The position numbers were made by a program, and so were the translations under genes. Of a stretch of 4,918 nt of DNA, positions 1 to 4,448 are shown in pieces (within the stretch, counting starts at the first letter, position 1; each line of letters starts with the position of its first letter). Below the pieces are notes generated by a model, which did no database searches, was not told the DNA's origin, and saw nothing but the letters and a program-made list of their open reading frames with translations. The DNA comes from a virus (lineage: Duplodnaviria > Heunggongvirae > Uroviricota > Caudoviricetes), in the IMG/VR virus record IMGVR_UViG_3300001149_000098. The stretch is one strand, 5' to 3'.

Positions 1-1215
1 ATGAAGATCGTAAAGGCTGAAGTTTTTGTTACCTGTCCGGGGCGTAATTTCGTCACATTAAAAATCACCACTGAGGACGGTATTACGGGCCTTGGGGATG
101 CCACCCTCAATGGACGTGAGCTTTCCGTGGCCTCTTATTTGCAGGATCACCTTTGTCCGCAGCTTATTGGTCGCGATGCGCACCGTATCGAAGATATCTG
201 GCAGTTTTTCTATAAAGGTGCTTACTGGCGTCGCGGTCCGGTTACGATGTCGGCCATTTCAGCGGTTGATATGGCGCTGTGGGATATTAAAGCCAAAGCT
301 GCCAACATGCCGCTTTACCAGTTACTCGGCGGCGCGTCTCGTGAAGGGGTGATGGTTTATTGCCATACCACCGGTCACAGTATTGATGAAGCTCTGGATG
401 ATTATGCCCGTCATCAGGAGCTGGGATTCAAAGCCATCCGCGTGCAGTGCGGAATCCCTGGTATGAAAACCACCTACGGCATGTCGAAAGGTAAAGGTCT
501 GGCTTATGAACCCGCAACCAAAGGACAGTGGCCGGAAGAGCAGCTGTGGTCGACGGAGAAATACCTCGATTTCATGCCGAAATTGTTTGACGCGGTACGT
601 AACAAGTTTGGTTTTAATGAACATTTGCTGCATGACATGCACCATCGCTTAACGCCTATTGAAGCGGCGCGCTTTGGTAAAAGCATTGAAGATTATCGCA
701 TGTTCTGGATGGAAGACCCGACGCCTGCGGAAAACCAGGAATGCTTCCGTCTCATTCGCCAACATACCGTCACACCCATCGCAGTGGGTGAAGTCTTCAA
801 CAGCATCTGGGACTGCAAACAACTGATTGAAGAGCAACTCATCGATTATATCCGCACCACGCTGACCCATGCAGGCGGAATTACCGGTATGCGCCGGATT
901 GCCGATTTTGCTTCGCTGTATCAGGTACGTACTGGCTCACACGGTCCTTCCGATTTGTCACCAGTCTGCATGGCTGCGGCGCTGCACTTTGATCTGTGGG
1001 TCCCCAATTTCGGTGTCCAGGAATACATGGGTTATTCCGAACAAATGCTCGAAGTCTTCCCGCACAACTGGACTTTCGATAACGGCTATATGCATCCGGG
1101 AGACAAACCGGGTCTTGGTATCGAATTCGATGAAAAGCTGGCGGCGAAATATCCCTATGAACCTGCTTATCTACCAGTCGCACGTCTGGAAGATGGCACG
1201 CTGTGGAACTGGTAA
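1..1215 (+). CDS. rspA: Starvation-sensing protein RspA; enolase-superfamily D-mannonate dehydratase (ManD) family, 404 aa
   Basis: Complete 404-aa ORF starting at window position 1 (ATG) with TAA stop at 1213-1215. The protein is recognised from memory as essentially identical to E. coli RspA; not confirmed by search. Followed 11 nt downstream by rspB, as expected for the rspAB operon. Confidence 0.93.
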
Positions 1216-1219
1216 GGAG
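1214..1219 (+). promoter_or_regulatory. Shine-Dalgarno sequence (AAGGAG) for rspB, overlapping the rspA stop codon
   Basis: AAGGAG at 1214-1219, 7 nt upstream of the rspB ATG at 1227. The rspA stop TAA (1213-1215) overlaps it, indicating an operon with tight translational arrangement. Confidence 0.8.
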
Positions 1220-1226
1220 TAAGATA

Positions 1227-2246
1227 ATGAAAAGCATATTAATTGAAAAACCGAATCAACTGGCGATTGTCGAACGTGAAATACCCACCCCGTCAGCGGG
1301 TGAAGTACGAGTAAAAGTGAAACTTGCCGGAATTTGTGGTTCAGATAGCCATATTTATCGTGGGCATAATCCTTTTGCGAAATATCCGCGCGTCATTGGT
1401 CATGAATTCTTTGGCGTCATTGATGCAGTGGGTGAAGGCGTGGAAAGCGCCAGAGTCGGTGAACGTGTTGCTGTCGATCCGGTGGTCAGCTGTGGGCATT
1501 GCTATCCGTGCTCTATAGGTAAACCGAACGTTTGTACGACACTGGCTGTATTAGGTGTGCACGCTGACGGTGGTTTCAGTGAATATGCCGTGGTTCCGGC
1601 AAAAAATGCGTGGAAAATTCCTGAAGCAGTGGCCGATCAATATGCGGTAATGATCGAACCTTTTACCATTGCGGCTAACGTAACCGGACATGGTCAACCG
1701 ACTGAAAATGATACCGTTCTGGTTTATGGTGCCGGTCCAATCGGCCTGACGATCGTTCAGGTATTAAAAGGCGTCTATAACGTTAAAAATGTGATTGTTG
1801 CCGATCGCATTGATGAACGACTGGAAAAAGCGAAAGAGAGCGGGGCTGACTGGGCGATTAATAACAGCCAGACACCGCTTGGCGAGATTTTCACTGAAAA
1901 AGGCATCAAGCCGACATTAATTATTGATGCGGCTTGTCATCCTTCTATCCTGAAAGAGGCCGTAACGCTGGCTTCTCCAGCGGCACGTATTGTATTGATG
2001 GGTTTCTCCAGTGAACCGTCTGAAGTGATTCAGCAAGGAATTACCGGAAAAGAACTCTCTATTTTCTCTTCACGCTTAAATGCAAATAAATTCCCGGTCG
2101 TTATCGACTGGTTAAGTAAAGGGTTAATTAAACCAGAAAAATTAATTACCCATACGTTTGATTTCCAGCATGTTGCTGATGCCATTAGTTTATTTGAACA
2201 GGATCAAAAACATTGCTGCAAAGTCTTACTCACTTTTTCTGAATAA
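1227..2246 (+). CDS. rspB: Starvation-sensing protein RspB; zinc-dependent medium-chain dehydrogenase/reductase (reported L-gulonate 5-dehydrogenase activity), 339 aa
   Basis: The ORF track opens this frame at a GTG at 1203, but the ATG at 1227 has a strong SD and gives 339 aa (MKSILIEK...). Zn-ADH hallmarks are visible: catalytic Cys/His (GICGSDSH, GHEFFG), a structural-zinc Cys cluster (CGHCYPCSIGKPNVC) and a Rossmann GxGxxG motif (VLVYGAGPIGL). Synteny with rspA. Confidence 0.92.
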   Translation: MKSILIEKPNQLAIVEREIPTPSAGEVRVKVKLAGICGSDSHIYRGHNPFAKYPRVIGHEFFGVIDAVGEGVESARVGERVAVDPVVSCGHCYPCSIGKPNVCTTLAVLGVHADGGFSEYAVVPAKNAWKIPEAVADQYAVMIEPFTIAANVTGHGQPTENDTVLVYGAGPIGLTIVQVLKGVYNVKNVIVADRIDERLEKAKESGADWAINNSQTPLGEIFTEKGIKPTLIIDAACHPSILKEAVTLASPAARIVLMGFSSEPSEVIQQGITGKELSIFSSRLNANKFPVVIDWLSKGLIKPEKLITHTFDFQHVADAISLFEQDQKHCCKVLLTFSE

Positions 2247-2303
2247 TACCAATAACGGCGAGTAAGTAGTACGCATCTTACCTCTTTTTTAGAGATAACC
2301 ATT

Positions 2304-2408
2304 ATGACAATAGAAAAACACGAAAGAAGCACTAAGGATTTGGTGAAAGCAGCAGTATCGGGATGGCTGGGCACTGCGCTTGAATTTATGGATTTCAAGA
2401 GTCATTAG
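2304..2408 (+). pseudogene. ydfJ: 5' fragment (34 codons) of an MFS-family transporter gene (ydfJ-like), truncated by prophage insertion
   Basis: ATG at 2304 with a weak purine-rich stretch upstream. Translation MTIEKHERSTKDLVKAAVSGWLGTALEFMDFKSH* contains the N-terminal motif typical of ProP/ShiA/KgtP-type metabolite:H+ symporters (..G..G...E..DF) and then stops at TAG 2406-2408, at the boundary with AT-rich prophage DNA. Synteny downstream of rspB matches the known Qin-interrupted ydfJ of E. coli K-12 (recalled, not searched). Confidence 0.6.
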
Positions 2409-2440
2409 TGTTAACTATTTGATAAATATTAAATTAATTT
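2395..2440. other. Predicted prophage-chromosome junction (att core region) between the ydfJ stub and the integrase 3' end
   Basis: The host-like transporter reading frame ends at 2408 and the integrase stop is at 2434-2436. The intervening DNA is strongly AT-rich (tgttaactatttgataaatattaaattaattttt) and contains an IHF-consensus-like 13-mer on the - strand (2412-2424). The exact core cannot be defined without the other prophage end. Confidence 0.45.
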
Positions 2441-3728
2441 TTCATTGCTTCGTTATGGGGCATGGTTGGGGCAAACTCGCTTAACTGTGTATTTAACAAA
2501 GCTACCTGTGCATTATTGTTTTCAGACATCCATTTTCCGTATACCTGAAATACCATTTGCGCATCTGCATGGCCCATCTGGTTTGCTATAAATGCCGGGT
2601 TAGCACCAGCTGTCAGCGACCAGCAGGCATAAGTATGTCTCGACTGATATGATTTTCGATGGCGGAGTCCGGCACGTTTTATCGCTGCGTCCCACATCTG
2701 CCTTATTGAGTCAACGGTAAAATGGTCACCATAATTTTTTACTCTCGCTGACACTTCAGGTTGAAAAACAAAGGTGCATTTTGTTTTTCTGTTCTGCCAT
2801 ACTCTCTGAGGTGAACATCAATGATATGCTCTTTGCTCAGTCTCGTTAATGTCATCTGACTCCGGAGAGCGTCGATTGCTGGCTTAATAAGATGAATGAC
2901 CCGATTGGTTCCCGCCTGTGTTTTTGGTACCGTGAAACGGTCTTTTGCTAAATTTCTCCTGATCATCATTGTTCCATTTTTCAGATCTATGTCCTCCCAT
3001 CCAAGTGCACACAGCTCACCAGGGCGAATGCCAGTATAAACAGAAACACACCATAAATTTTTTGCTTGCTGATTTCTGCACGCATCGATAAGACGGATAA
3101 ATTCCTCCCGCGAAAGAGGATCCGGAATGGTTCTTGATTCCTTTAATGGCGAGATCCCCTTAAACGGATTATCTGCCAGGTAACCGTTATCAACACCAAA
3201 CTGGAACACGGCGTTAAGATTTGTCATGTAATTATTTACAGTTACAGCCGATCTCCCTGGTTGTGTAACAATATAGTTACTTTTGGGGATCTGGTATCCA
3301 GTCAGTAGCTCTTTACGAACCTCCAGTAATTTTTCTTTATTAATCGATGAGGCAAGATTTTTTTCACCGATTATGCTCAGGATATTTTTGATGACGGCAC
3401 GGTATGTGTTGAGTGATGTTTTGGCGACTTCAGTTTCTTTTAGTGCCAGAAATTTTTCAGCCAGTTCTTTTATGGTTAAATCTTGTCGGGCCTCACCAAA
3501 TTTTTCCAGATTGCGTGAGGAGGGAAACTGTTTTGCATAGTCGAAAACACCAGTTTTTATTGCGTAACAAACAGAGGCGCGTAGTTCACCTGCAACGCGC
3601 CTGTTTTTTGCTGTGTCAGGAACCCCCAGATTTTCCCTGACTCTTACGCCTTTATAAACAAACCAGATACGTAATTTCCCTCCATGGTTTTCCACGCCTG
3701 TCGGATATTTCATTTCAACTTCTCTCAT
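2434..3728 (-). pseudogene. intQ: Phage tyrosine integrase (IntQ/IntR-like, N-terminal arm-binding domain), disrupted by a frameshift into 329-aa and 106-aa frames
   Basis: The 329-aa frame (2739..3728) has an N-terminal MKYPTGVE..GKLRIWF arm-binding-type motif, box I Arg (TGIRPGE) and the conserved Lys (PKTQAG). The 106-aa frame (2434..2754) has box II (SRHTYACW) and the His/Tyr nucleophile region (GHADAQMVFQVYGKW). The frames overlap at 2739-2754 and differ by one base. The shift must lie within 2742..2817 and probably sits in an A5 or T5 run (2764-2768 or 2784-2788 on the + strand). The start may be the second ATG at 3713 (MKYPTGVE), which has a better purine-rich stretch upstream. Confidence 0.85.
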
Positions 3729-3747: not shown

Positions 3748-3885
3748 TCAAGTAAGATGACGTCTTGGTCTCGCTGATGCCTGGCGCTCAATCCAGCGAT
3801 CAATTTCTTCCAGGTTGTAAAAGCATGGACTGTTATCCCATGGCATACCGTCATGAGCGACATGCTTATATTCCCTTCCTTCCAT
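3748..3885 (-). CDS. Excisionase-like small protein (DUF1233-type pattern); 45 aa from the first ATG, with the open frame extending upstream to 3966 without a canonical start
   Basis: Hand translation of the - strand gives MEGREYKHVAHDGMPWDNSPCFYNLEEIDRWIERQASARPRRHLT*, with stop TGA at 3748-3750, 19 nt upstream of the int start in the same orientation (classic xis-int arrangement). The W.EG.EY...DG...FYN.EEIDRWI pattern resembles putative excisionases. The same frame continues upstream as RHVSEEQLIALKGIKKGTLKKAREKSF with no ATG, GTG or TTG. Confidence 0.5.
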   Translation of the reverse strand: MEGREYKHVAHDGMPWDNSPCFYNLEEIDRWIERQASARPRRHLT

Positions 3886-3941
3886 AAACGATTTTTCCCG
3901 GGCCTTTTTTAACGTACCTTTTTTTATTCCTTTCAGCGCAA

Positions 3942-4448
3942 TTAACTGCTCTTCGGATACATGGCGTTAACTTCTGGCATTTTCATCAACGCTTCAACGA
4001 TATGTCCGTCGAATGTTGCCATGTCTTCCTGCAACAATTCCTGTGCGCTAATAACCATATCAACGGTGATGTTTTCACATGTGTCGAACTTAACCATGAC
4101 AGCGTTCTGTACTTCAGGGGCCAGCTTGTCAAAAGTGACGTTCATCGGATCGGATTCAGTCTCAACCGGGACAAAAGAAGCAGACTCCTCATCCCAGCGG
4201 TTTTCCTGCATATATTCAGCATCCCATGAATCGAGGGCAGGGCGGGGTATGCCAGGTTTATCCTCGCAGACAATAAATTTATAAGCGCAGTCCTGAGCAG
4301 CCGGATAATGTTCCAGGAACTGCCAGTGAAATTTTGCTCGAGCACGGCGTTCGTCGCCAGCTTCAATGGCTGTGGCTACAGCCACAGCGCCTTCTTCCCT
4401 TGTTGCCAGTTCGTCAGGAATAGCGGCGCAAATAAAGACTTTACTCAT
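3942..4448 (-). CDS. Highly acidic 168-aa prophage protein of unknown function (positional counterpart of Qin ydfE)
   Basis: ORF 3942..4448 with ATG at 4448-4446 preceded by GAGG about 9 nt upstream. Hand count gives about 32 Asp+Glu against 14 Lys+Arg, with no obvious transmembrane segment or catalytic motif. It lies between ydfD and the xis-like ORF, co-oriented with the dicB operon. Confidence 0.65.
   Translation of the reverse strand: MSKVFICAAIPDELATREEGAVAVATAIEAGDERRARAKFHWQFLEHYPAAQDCAYKFIVCEDKPGIPRPALDSWDAEYMQENRWDEESASFVPVETESDPMNVTFDKLAPEVQNAVMVKFDTCENITVDMVISAQELLQEDMATFDGHIVEALMKMPEVNAMYPKSS

What the first reader, a model, noticed from the sequence alone, without database searches (positions are those of the whole stretch)
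2434..3728. Integrase catalytic domain split by a single-base frameshift
Box I Arg and the conserved Lys are in one frame (2739..3728), while box II RHT and the Tyr nucleophile are in the other (2434..2754). The 329-aa product would lack the catalytic Tyr and be inactive, so as encoded the prophage is locked in the chromosome. The shift is confined to 2742..2817, which contains A5 and T5 homopolymer runs (2764-2768, 2784-2788). It could instead be a sequencing or assembly error at a homopolymer.
Basis: seen in the sequence. Interest (0 to 1): 0.55.

Follow-up and report, generated by a model that had tools for sequence, protein, structure and literature searches.

The report
Frameshifted integrase pseudogene, Qin-like prophage
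The integrase gene of a decayed prophage in E. coli B/BL21 is broken by a genuine, inherited one-base deletion; databases already mark it as a pseudogene, so it is an ordinary case of prophage decay.

Summary
The window is the rspA–rspB / Qin-like cryptic prophage junction of the E. coli BL21 lineage, matched at 100% over 4918 bases. The prophage integrase is split into two frames by loss of one A from an A5 run (coding strand), leaving A4 at window 2779-2782, codon 312 of a 426-aa tyrosine recombinase. Arg230 and Lys264 lie upstream of the shift. Arg359, His382 and the nucleophile Tyr392 lie downstream in the other frame.

It is not a sequencing error. The same allele occurs in about 60 independently assembled genomes: B, REL606, many BL21 derivatives, ATCC 8739, and wild isolates from humans, poultry, pigs and seawater. 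About 2,900 other E. coli genomes and four sequenced lambdoid phages carry the intact A5 form. RefSeq already labels the gene "frameshifted".

The "locked in" inference is reasonable but incomplete. The prophage is a roughly 16-kb remnant without head or tail genes. In BL21 a further 2,095-bp deletion truncates the excisionase and the exonuclease. Both att sites look intact.

K-12 intQ is the same gene, inactivated by a different lesion. The finding is ordinary, already known and of low interest.

The parts
2434..3713 (-). Integrase pseudogene of the Qin-like prophage (tyrosine recombinase, IntQ/IntR type). The intact form is 1281 nt / 426 aa.
   Evidence: RefSeq lists a 'frameshifted' CDS at these coordinates in BL21(DE3), REL606 and strain C. 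Pfam hits are PF12167 and PF00589. It is 99.4-99.6% identical to intact 1281-nt alleles.
2779..2782 (-). Frameshift site: an A4 run (coding strand) that is A5 in intact alleles. The shift falls at codon Lys312.
   Evidence: MAFFT alignment with two intact alleles shows a single gap here. Inserting one base restores a 426-aa ORF.
2739..3713 (-). Upstream reading frame, giving a 324-aa product of 311 native residues plus 13 out-of-frame residues (NAPLFFNLKCQRE) and a stop. It holds the arm-binding domain, the core-binding region, Arg230 and Lys264.
2434..2778 (-). Downstream frame encoding native residues 313-426, with Arg359 (2640-2638), His382 (2571-2569) and Tyr392 (2541-2539). The only in-frame start is the GTG at 2754.
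2381..2396 (+). attL core TGAATTTATGGATTTC, at the junction of the ydfJ 5' end (2304-2396) with the prophage P' arm (2397-2433).
   Evidence: Comparison of attB (empty-site genome, L006), attL, attR (L004 38751-38765) and phage attP (mEp460_ev081, Tritos).
3748..3942 (-). Truncated excisionase (DUF1233). The first 19 of 83 codons are lost. PGAP calls a 64-aa protein from an ATT start, and the first ATG gives 45 aa.
3951..3960 (.). Junction of a BL21-lineage 2,095-bp deletion (microhomology CGGATAC). It removes the 5' end of xis and the 3' three-quarters of the exonuclease gene.
   Evidence: The window aligns to REL606 and strain C in two pieces. Junction sequences are and annotations.
3951..4448 (-). 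Exonuclease VIII-like gene remnant (N-terminal 166 codons).
   Evidence: RefSeq annotation 'incomplete; missing C-terminus'. The full 2472-nt gene is present in REL606.

Best explanation
This is the integrase gene of a Qin-like lambdoid cryptic prophage inserted in the 5' end of ydfJ, next to rspB, in the E. coli B/BL21 lineage. A spontaneous one-base deletion in a short A5 run, most simply replication slippage, shifted the frame at codon 312.

Translation then ends 13 codons later. The 324-aa product keeps the arm-binding domain, the core-binding domain and the first half of the catalytic domain (Arg230, Lys264). It lacks box II Arg359, His382 and the nucleophile Tyr392.

A tyrosine recombinase without its tyrosine cannot cleave DNA, so the prophage cannot excise through its own Int. 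The mutation is real, was inherited by a clade of strains, and is one of several decay lesions in an element that has already lost its morphogenesis genes. In BL21 the element has also lost the 5' end of xis.

- **Shown:** the indel, its position, its distribution, the intact att sites and the other lesions.
- **Inferred:** loss of catalytic activity, from the established chemistry of the family, and loss of excision.
For: - **Single indel.** One gap relative to intact alleles, and repair restores a 426-aa ORF.
- **Split catalytic domain.** The PF00589 match is divided between the two frames, against one continuous match in the intact protein.
- **Catalytic residues.** They are placed by alignment to the Tn1549 Int structure and to Rac IntR.
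- **Allele distribution.** The allele is identical in 59 genomes with a 98-base probe. At least 57 genomes are identical over 1601 bases, including REL606, BL21(DE3), B, ATCC 8739, ATCC 11303 and wild isolates.
- **Shared remnant.** The wild isolate MIN14 carries the same frameshift in the same IS3-disrupted remnant.
- **Intact form elsewhere.** It is found in about 2,900 genomes and in phages PhiR42_1, HannyBb, Tritos and mEp460_ev081 at 99.2-99.8% identity.
- **Annotation.** RefSeq marks the gene 'frameshifted'.
- **Precedent.** K-12 Qin carries an inactive intQ and shows no detectable excision (PMC3105296). The literature describes integrase mutation as a route to prophage 'grounding', with multiple mutations in intQ' across Qin hits (PMC6379469).
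Against: - No raw reads were available, so the case against a sequencing error rests on agreement among assemblies.
- No functional data exist for this allele. Loss of activity and of excision are inferred.
- Low-level ribosomal slippage on the A-rich stretch cannot be formally excluded.
- The integrase is not what decides whether the phage is defective. A strain with an intact int (EC21Z-078) also carries a remnant without head or tail genes.
Confidence: 0.95

Rival explanations
1. Sequencing or assembly error at a homopolymer: the real genome has A5 and an intact 426-aa integrase.
For: The indel lies in a homopolymer run, a classic error site. No raw reads could be examined.
Against: The run is only 4-5 bases long. 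The same allele appears in 59-61 assemblies from many laboratories, spanning at least 15 years by my own knowledge of the deposit dates, and including wild isolates from four kinds of host or source. About 2,900 other assemblies read A5 at the same site. The allele tracks one haplotype that is 100% identical over 1601 bases, as expected for an inherited mutation and not for random error.
Confidence: 0.01
2. Programmed or leaky -1 ribosomal frameshifting (or transcriptional slippage) on the A-rich stretch GAAAAACAAAAU restores some full-length, active integrase.
For: A -1 slip anywhere in a window of about 30 codons would rejoin the native frame. The stretch is A-rich, and Lys AAA codons are slip-prone in E. 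coli (general knowledge, e.g. dnaX). The site sits in a predicted 10-bp hairpin (z = -2.5).
Against: There is no canonical X XXY YYZ heptamer in the zero frame (read from the sequence). A4 and A5 runs are too short for efficient transcriptional slippage (general knowledge). The two-frame arrangement is not conserved: all other homologues, including those in viable phages, are single ORFs. The predicted hairpin contains the site itself instead of lying downstream of it, and is A/U-rich.
Confidence: 0.02
3. The 324-aa truncated Int is retained for a non-catalytic role. It still has its arm-binding and core-binding domains and could bind att DNA, for example acting as a dominant-negative against related incoming phages or as a regulator.
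For: The N-terminal domains are intact (PF12167, E = 4e-24). The truncated ORF has no further disabling mutations, with only two substitutions against an intact allele. The allele persists in wild isolates.
Against: A sequence identical over 1601 bases across carriers points to a recent origin, so the lack of further decay says nothing about selection. No expression data exist. The same gene is destroyed in quite different ways in K-12 and O157:H7, which argues for neutral decay.
Confidence: 0.03

Closest known systems
intQ' (b1579), the defective integrase of the Qin cryptic prophage of E. coli K-12
   Same: It is the same gene at the same chromosomal site, ydfJ next to rspB, at 99.3% nucleotide identity over the shared 1293 bases. 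It is likewise a pseudogene, and Qin excision is undetectable in K-12 (PMC3105296).
   Different: The lesion differs. K-12 lacks the N-terminus, with the gene truncated beside an IS2 remnant, and keeps A5 at the site mutated here (1294 record bases match 1293 query bases). The B/BL21 allele is full length with a 1-bp deletion at codon 312.
Integrases of lambdoid phages mEp460_ev081, Tritos, HannyBb and PhiR42_1
   Same: They are 99.2-99.8% identical in DNA over the whole gene, with the same int-xis-exonuclease order. Their attP is identical to the P and P' arms found at BL21 attR and attL.
   Different: The phage genes are single 1281-nt ORFs, whereas the window copy is frameshifted.
IntR, integrase of the Rac prophage (intact in BL21(DE3))
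   Same: It has the same domain architecture and the same active-site motifs, including Tyr in place of the first His of box II (Y-x-x-R-H-T). Protein identity is 43% over 414 residues.
   Different: It uses a different attachment site (ttcA) and a different Xis (26% identity). It is unlikely to act on the ydfJ att sites; this is an inference from the known specificity of lambda-family integrases.

Membership tests
Tyrosine recombinase / phage integrase (Pfam PF00589, lambda-Int type) | Catalytic domain matching PF00589 above the gathering score | tested here: met
   The intact allele scores 66.3 bits over profile positions 4-165. In the window the two fragments score 36.0 and 30.7 bits, each above the 27.1 cut-off.
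Tyrosine recombinase / phage integrase (Pfam PF00589, lambda-Int type) | Catalytic residues Arg (box I), Lys, H/Y-x-x-Arg (box II), His/Trp and the Tyr nucleophile | tested here: met
   Arg230, Lys264, Tyr356-x-x-Arg359, His382 and Tyr392 align with the corresponding residues of Tn1549 Int (6emy) and of IntR.
Tyrosine recombinase / phage integrase (Pfam PF00589, lambda-Int type) | All catalytic residues encoded in one polypeptide (a functional gene) | tested here: not met
   A 1-bp deletion at codon 312 puts Arg359, His382 and Tyr392 in another frame. By descent the gene belongs to the family, but it is a pseudogene.
Tyrosine recombinase / phage integrase (Pfam PF00589, lambda-Int type) | N-terminal arm-type DNA-binding domain | tested here: met
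   PF12167, E = 4.1e-24, residues 9-72 of the 329-aa ORF.
Tyrosine recombinase / phage integrase (Pfam PF00589, lambda-Int type) | SAM-like core-binding domain | tested here: inconclusive
   PF14659 and PF13102 hit at E of about 3e-4, but just below their gathering scores.
Qin-type prophage at ydfJ | Insertion in the 5' end of ydfJ, with int-xis beside attL and a shared core at attR | tested here: met
   attB, attL, attR and attP were compared. The core is TGAATT(T)ATGGATTTC. The literature describes Qin at the 5' end of ydfJ (PMC6379469).
Programmed -1 ribosomal frameshift genes (dnaX, IS3 transposases) | Slippery heptamer X XXY YYZ in the zero frame | tested here: not met
   The zero-frame codons are ACA GAA AAA CAA AAU GCA, which contain no heptamer of that form.
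Programmed -1 ribosomal frameshift genes (dnaX, IS3 transposases) | Two-frame arrangement conserved among homologues | tested here: not met
   About 2,900 E. coli genomes and four phages carry the single-ORF form. The two-frame form is confined to one haplotype.

The most novel reading that the evidence does not exclude
The truncated 324-aa Int keeps its arm-binding and core-binding domains but has no nucleophile. It might be expressed and act as a dominant-negative att-site binder that interferes with integration or excision of incoming mEp460/Tritos-type phages. That would make it a domesticated anti-phage or prophage-stabilising factor and not mere debris.
Probability: 0.03. Interest if true: 0.4.

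Novelty: already known. Interest (0 to 1): 0.08.

Why it matters
It matters little beyond bookkeeping. It is one more example of a prophage being 'grounded' by integrase inactivation. The same integrase has been knocked out independently in three ways:
- a frameshift in the B/BL21/ATCC 8739 clade
- an N-terminal truncation in K-12
- a C-terminal loss in O157:H7

For people who use BL21 or REL606, the practical point is that this Qin-like element should be stable against site-specific excision. It can still be lost through other deletions, as reported for REL606-derived lines (PMC5419217). Both att sites are intact, so Int and Xis supplied in trans, for instance by a superinfecting mEp460-type phage, could in principle still excise it.

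Tried and rejected
- **Sequencing error:** rejected on the agreement of about 60 independent assemblies.
- **Programmed frameshift:** there is no slippery heptamer and the arrangement is not conserved. An RNA fold of 2700-2800 gave only an A/U-rich 10-bp hairpin that contains the site itself.
- **Defective attR as a second reason for immobility:** attR has a 15-bp core against 16 bp in attL. Phage attP carries the same 15-bp form, so this difference is native and not a lesion.
- **A second, closely related integrase in BL21 that could act in trans:** the only paralogue is Rac IntR, at 43% protein identity, with a different att site and a different Xis.
- **Literature on this exact allele:** none was found in the searchable library. 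Studier et al. 2009, the B-genome comparison, is not in the library and was not consulted.
- **Failed scripts:** the first att-site scripts failed because of wrong file names and a non-matching probe. They were redone.

Full report
**Origin of the window.** The whole 4918-base window matches the BL21 lineage of E. coli as a single 100% piece: BL21, BL21(DE3), C41, C43, the NEB Express and T7 Express strains, and others. It matches REL606, B, ATCC 8739 and several wild isolates at 100% in two pieces. In BL21(DE3) (NC_012971.2) the region is annotated in this order: rspA, rspB, a 'frameshifted' 'Arm DNA-binding domain-containing protein' pseudogene, xisR, a partial exonuclease VIII, ydfD and dicB. 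The window is therefore the left end of the Qin-like cryptic lambdoid prophage of E. coli B.

**Checking the observation.**
- Pfam places an arm-type DNA-binding domain (PF12167, E = 4e-24) and positions 4-86 of the Phage_integrase model (PF00589) in the first ORF. Positions 104-165 of the same model fall in the second.
- An intact homologue from another E. coli (WP_000877001.1, 426 aa) matches PF00589 positions 4-165 in one stretch.
- Alignment of that protein to the Tn1549 Int structure (6emy) and to Rac IntR identifies box I Arg230, Lys264, box II Tyr356-x-x-Arg359, His382 and the nucleophile Tyr392.
- In window coordinates the codons are 3026-3024, 2924-2922, 2640-2638, 2571-2569 and 2541-2539.

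**Locating the lesion.** Alignment of the window gene with two intact 1281-nt alleles shows seven substitutions and exactly one gap. GAAAAACAAAAATG in the intact genes reads GAAAAACAAAATG in the window.
- On the coding strand an A5 run has become A4. This is window 2779-2782 (TTTT on the + strand), at codon Lys312.
- After the shift the ribosome reads 13 foreign codons (NAPLFFNLKCQRE) and stops at 2741-2739.
- PGAP places the start at ATG 3713, which gives a 324-aa product.
- Putting one base back restores a 426-aa ORF that differs from WP_000877001.1 at two residues only.

**Real mutation or sequencing error?** It is a real mutation.
- A 98-base probe centred on the site is matched exactly in 59 of 5,426 complete E. 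coli genomes. About 2,900 others match with the extra base or with further differences.
- At least 57 genomes are 100% identical to the window over 1601 bases. Three more differ at one position and have the same 1601-base length.
- The carriers are E. coli B, REL606, ATCC 11303, dozens of independently sequenced BL21 derivatives, ATCC 8739 and a strain labelled 'C' from cow's milk. They also include wild isolates from humans (H1827/12, MIN14, E100341), poultry, pig and seawater.
- The human isolate MIN14 carries the frameshift in the same IS3-disrupted remnant.
- Agreement on this scale, together with the link to a single haplotype, indicates an inherited mutation and not a recurrent homopolymer error.
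- RefSeq flags the gene as 'frameshifted' in every PGAP-annotated genome I opened.

**What the intact gene is.** The intact allele is the integrase of viable lambdoid phages. PhiR42_1, HannyBb, Tritos and mEp460_ev081 carry it at 99.2-99.8% identity as a single 1281-nt ORF, followed by the same excisionase and exonuclease genes. E. coli K-12 carries the same gene as the known pseudogene intQ', at 99.3% identity. There it is truncated at the N-terminus next to an IS2 fragment and keeps the A5 run. O157:H7 genomes retain only the 5' half (H22 and H23). The same integrase has thus been inactivated independently at least three times. This agrees with the statement that 'multiple mutations in intQ'' are seen in most Qin prophages (PMC6379469).

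**Attachment sites.** I compared four sequences: an empty-site genome (intact ydfJ), the window's left junction, the right junction in BL21(DE3), and the attP regions of mEp460_ev081 and Tritos.
- The common core is TGAATT(T)ATGGATTTC.
- attL (window 2381-2396) has the 16-bp bacterial version. attR has the 15-bp version, which is identical to phage attP.
- The 365 bases of the P arm at attR are 98.6% identical to the phage.
- Both att sites therefore look intact. The one-base difference between them is native and is not a second lesion.
- The prophage interrupts ydfJ about 93 nt into the gene (window 2304-2396), as described for Qin (PMC6379469).

**Is the prophage 'locked in' by this frameshift?** Loss of the tyrosine nucleophile abolishes DNA cleavage in every tyrosine recombinase; this is established enzymology of the family and was not tested here. 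The inference that this Int is inactive is therefore sound. In K-12, where intQ is also dead, no Qin excision was detected (PMC3105296).
- **Extra deletion in BL21.** The window's lineage has a 2,095-bp deletion with a CGGATAC microhomology, its junction at window 3951-3960. It removes the first 19 codons of the 83-codon excisionase and all but 166 codons of the 823-codon exonuclease. REL606, B and ATCC 8739 lack this deletion.
- **The element is a remnant.** In BL21(DE3) it is about 16 kb. It has partial genes, an IS3 insertion and only fragments of tail-fibre genes, with no head genes. Excision could cure it but could not yield phage.
- **Intact int does not mean intact prophage.** EC21Z-078 has an intact int, yet its prophage also lacks head and tail genes. 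Integrase status is not what makes these elements defective.

The only paralogue in BL21(DE3) is the intact Rac intR. It is 43% identical in protein, has a different Xis (26% identity) and uses a different att site in ttcA. Cross-excision is unlikely, though that is inference.

**Alternatives considered.**
- **Programmed frameshifting.** This is unlikely. There is no X XXY YYZ heptamer in the zero frame, and the two-frame arrangement is absent from all other homologues. The only predicted structure is an A/U-rich 10-bp hairpin that contains the site itself (GAAAAACAAA...UUUGUUUUUC, window 2761-2789, z = -2.5). Very low spontaneous -1 slippage on the A-rich stretch cannot be excluded.
- **A retained non-catalytic role for the truncated protein.** This cannot be excluded either, but nothing supports it. 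The carriers are so nearly identical that the lack of further decay says nothing about selection.

**Verdict.** The sequencing-error alternative is rejected. The feature is a lineage-specific integrase pseudogene in a well-known cryptic prophage of one of the most heavily sequenced laboratory strains, and it is already flagged in RefSeq. It is ordinary prophage decay, already known and of low interest.

Noticed in passing
window 3951-3960 (junction); REL606 locus L005 about 4952-7046: A 2,095-bp deletion found in the BL21-lineage genomes (single-piece matches) but absent from REL606, B, ATCC 8739 and strain C. It is flanked by the microhomology CGGATAC. It truncates the excisionase (83 aa down to 64 aa at most, with no ATG/GTG/TTG start before codon 39) and leaves only the N-terminal 166 codons of the exonuclease VIII-like gene.
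   Followed up: yes
window 2381-2396 (attL); L004 38751-38765 (attR); L008/L009 about 1447-1461 (attP): The attL core is 16 bp (TGAATTTATGGATTTC) and the attR core is 15 bp (TGAATTATGGATTTC). Phage attP has the 15-bp form, so the difference is native. Strand exchange must occur within ATGGATTTC.
   Followed up: yes
window 2761-2789, minus strand: The frameshift site lies at the loop edge of a 10-bp A/U-rich inverted repeat (GAAAAACAAA / TTTGTTTTTC) inside the coding sequence. The RNA fold z-score is -2.5. Whether this quasi-palindrome promoted the deletion was not explored.
   Followed up: partly
L010 27168-28620 (NC_012971.2 1397168-1398620): BL21(DE3) keeps apparently intact Rac intR and xisR genes next to ttcA. 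IntR is 43% identical to the intact form of the integrase studied here and shares the unusual Tyr in place of the first His of box II.
   Followed up: partly
one search hits H22/H23 (O157:H7 SS52 and 06-3462); L007 1635-2798 (K-12 DH1): The same integrase carries independent lesions in other lineages. O157:H7 keeps only the 5' half, adjoining rspA in one genome. K-12 lacks the N-terminus, beside an IS2 fragment.
   Followed up: partly
L008 (mEp460_ev081), int codon 311: This phage has CAT AAA where other alleles have CAA AAA. The substitution breaks the A5 run that suffered the deletion in the B lineage.
   Followed up: no
window 3713-3728: There are two in-frame ATGs 15 nt apart. PGAP and all intact homologues are annotated from the downstream one (3713, MKYPTG...). 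The GAGAGAAG stretch in front of it could serve as a ribosome-binding site.
   Followed up: no
L010 13942-14694 (NC_012971.2 1383942-1384694): fnr is annotated as a pseudogene with an internal stop in BL21(DE3).
   Followed up: no
L003 729-2947 and 4774-7602 (strain TBE6): In this strain, which has an intact int, rspB is interrupted by ISKpn26 and the prophage exonuclease by an IS3-family element.
   Followed up: no
window 1203-1226: The mechanical ORF for rspB starts at GTG 1203 (347 aa) and overlaps the end of rspA. RefSeq annotates rspB from 1227 (339 aa).
   Followed up: no
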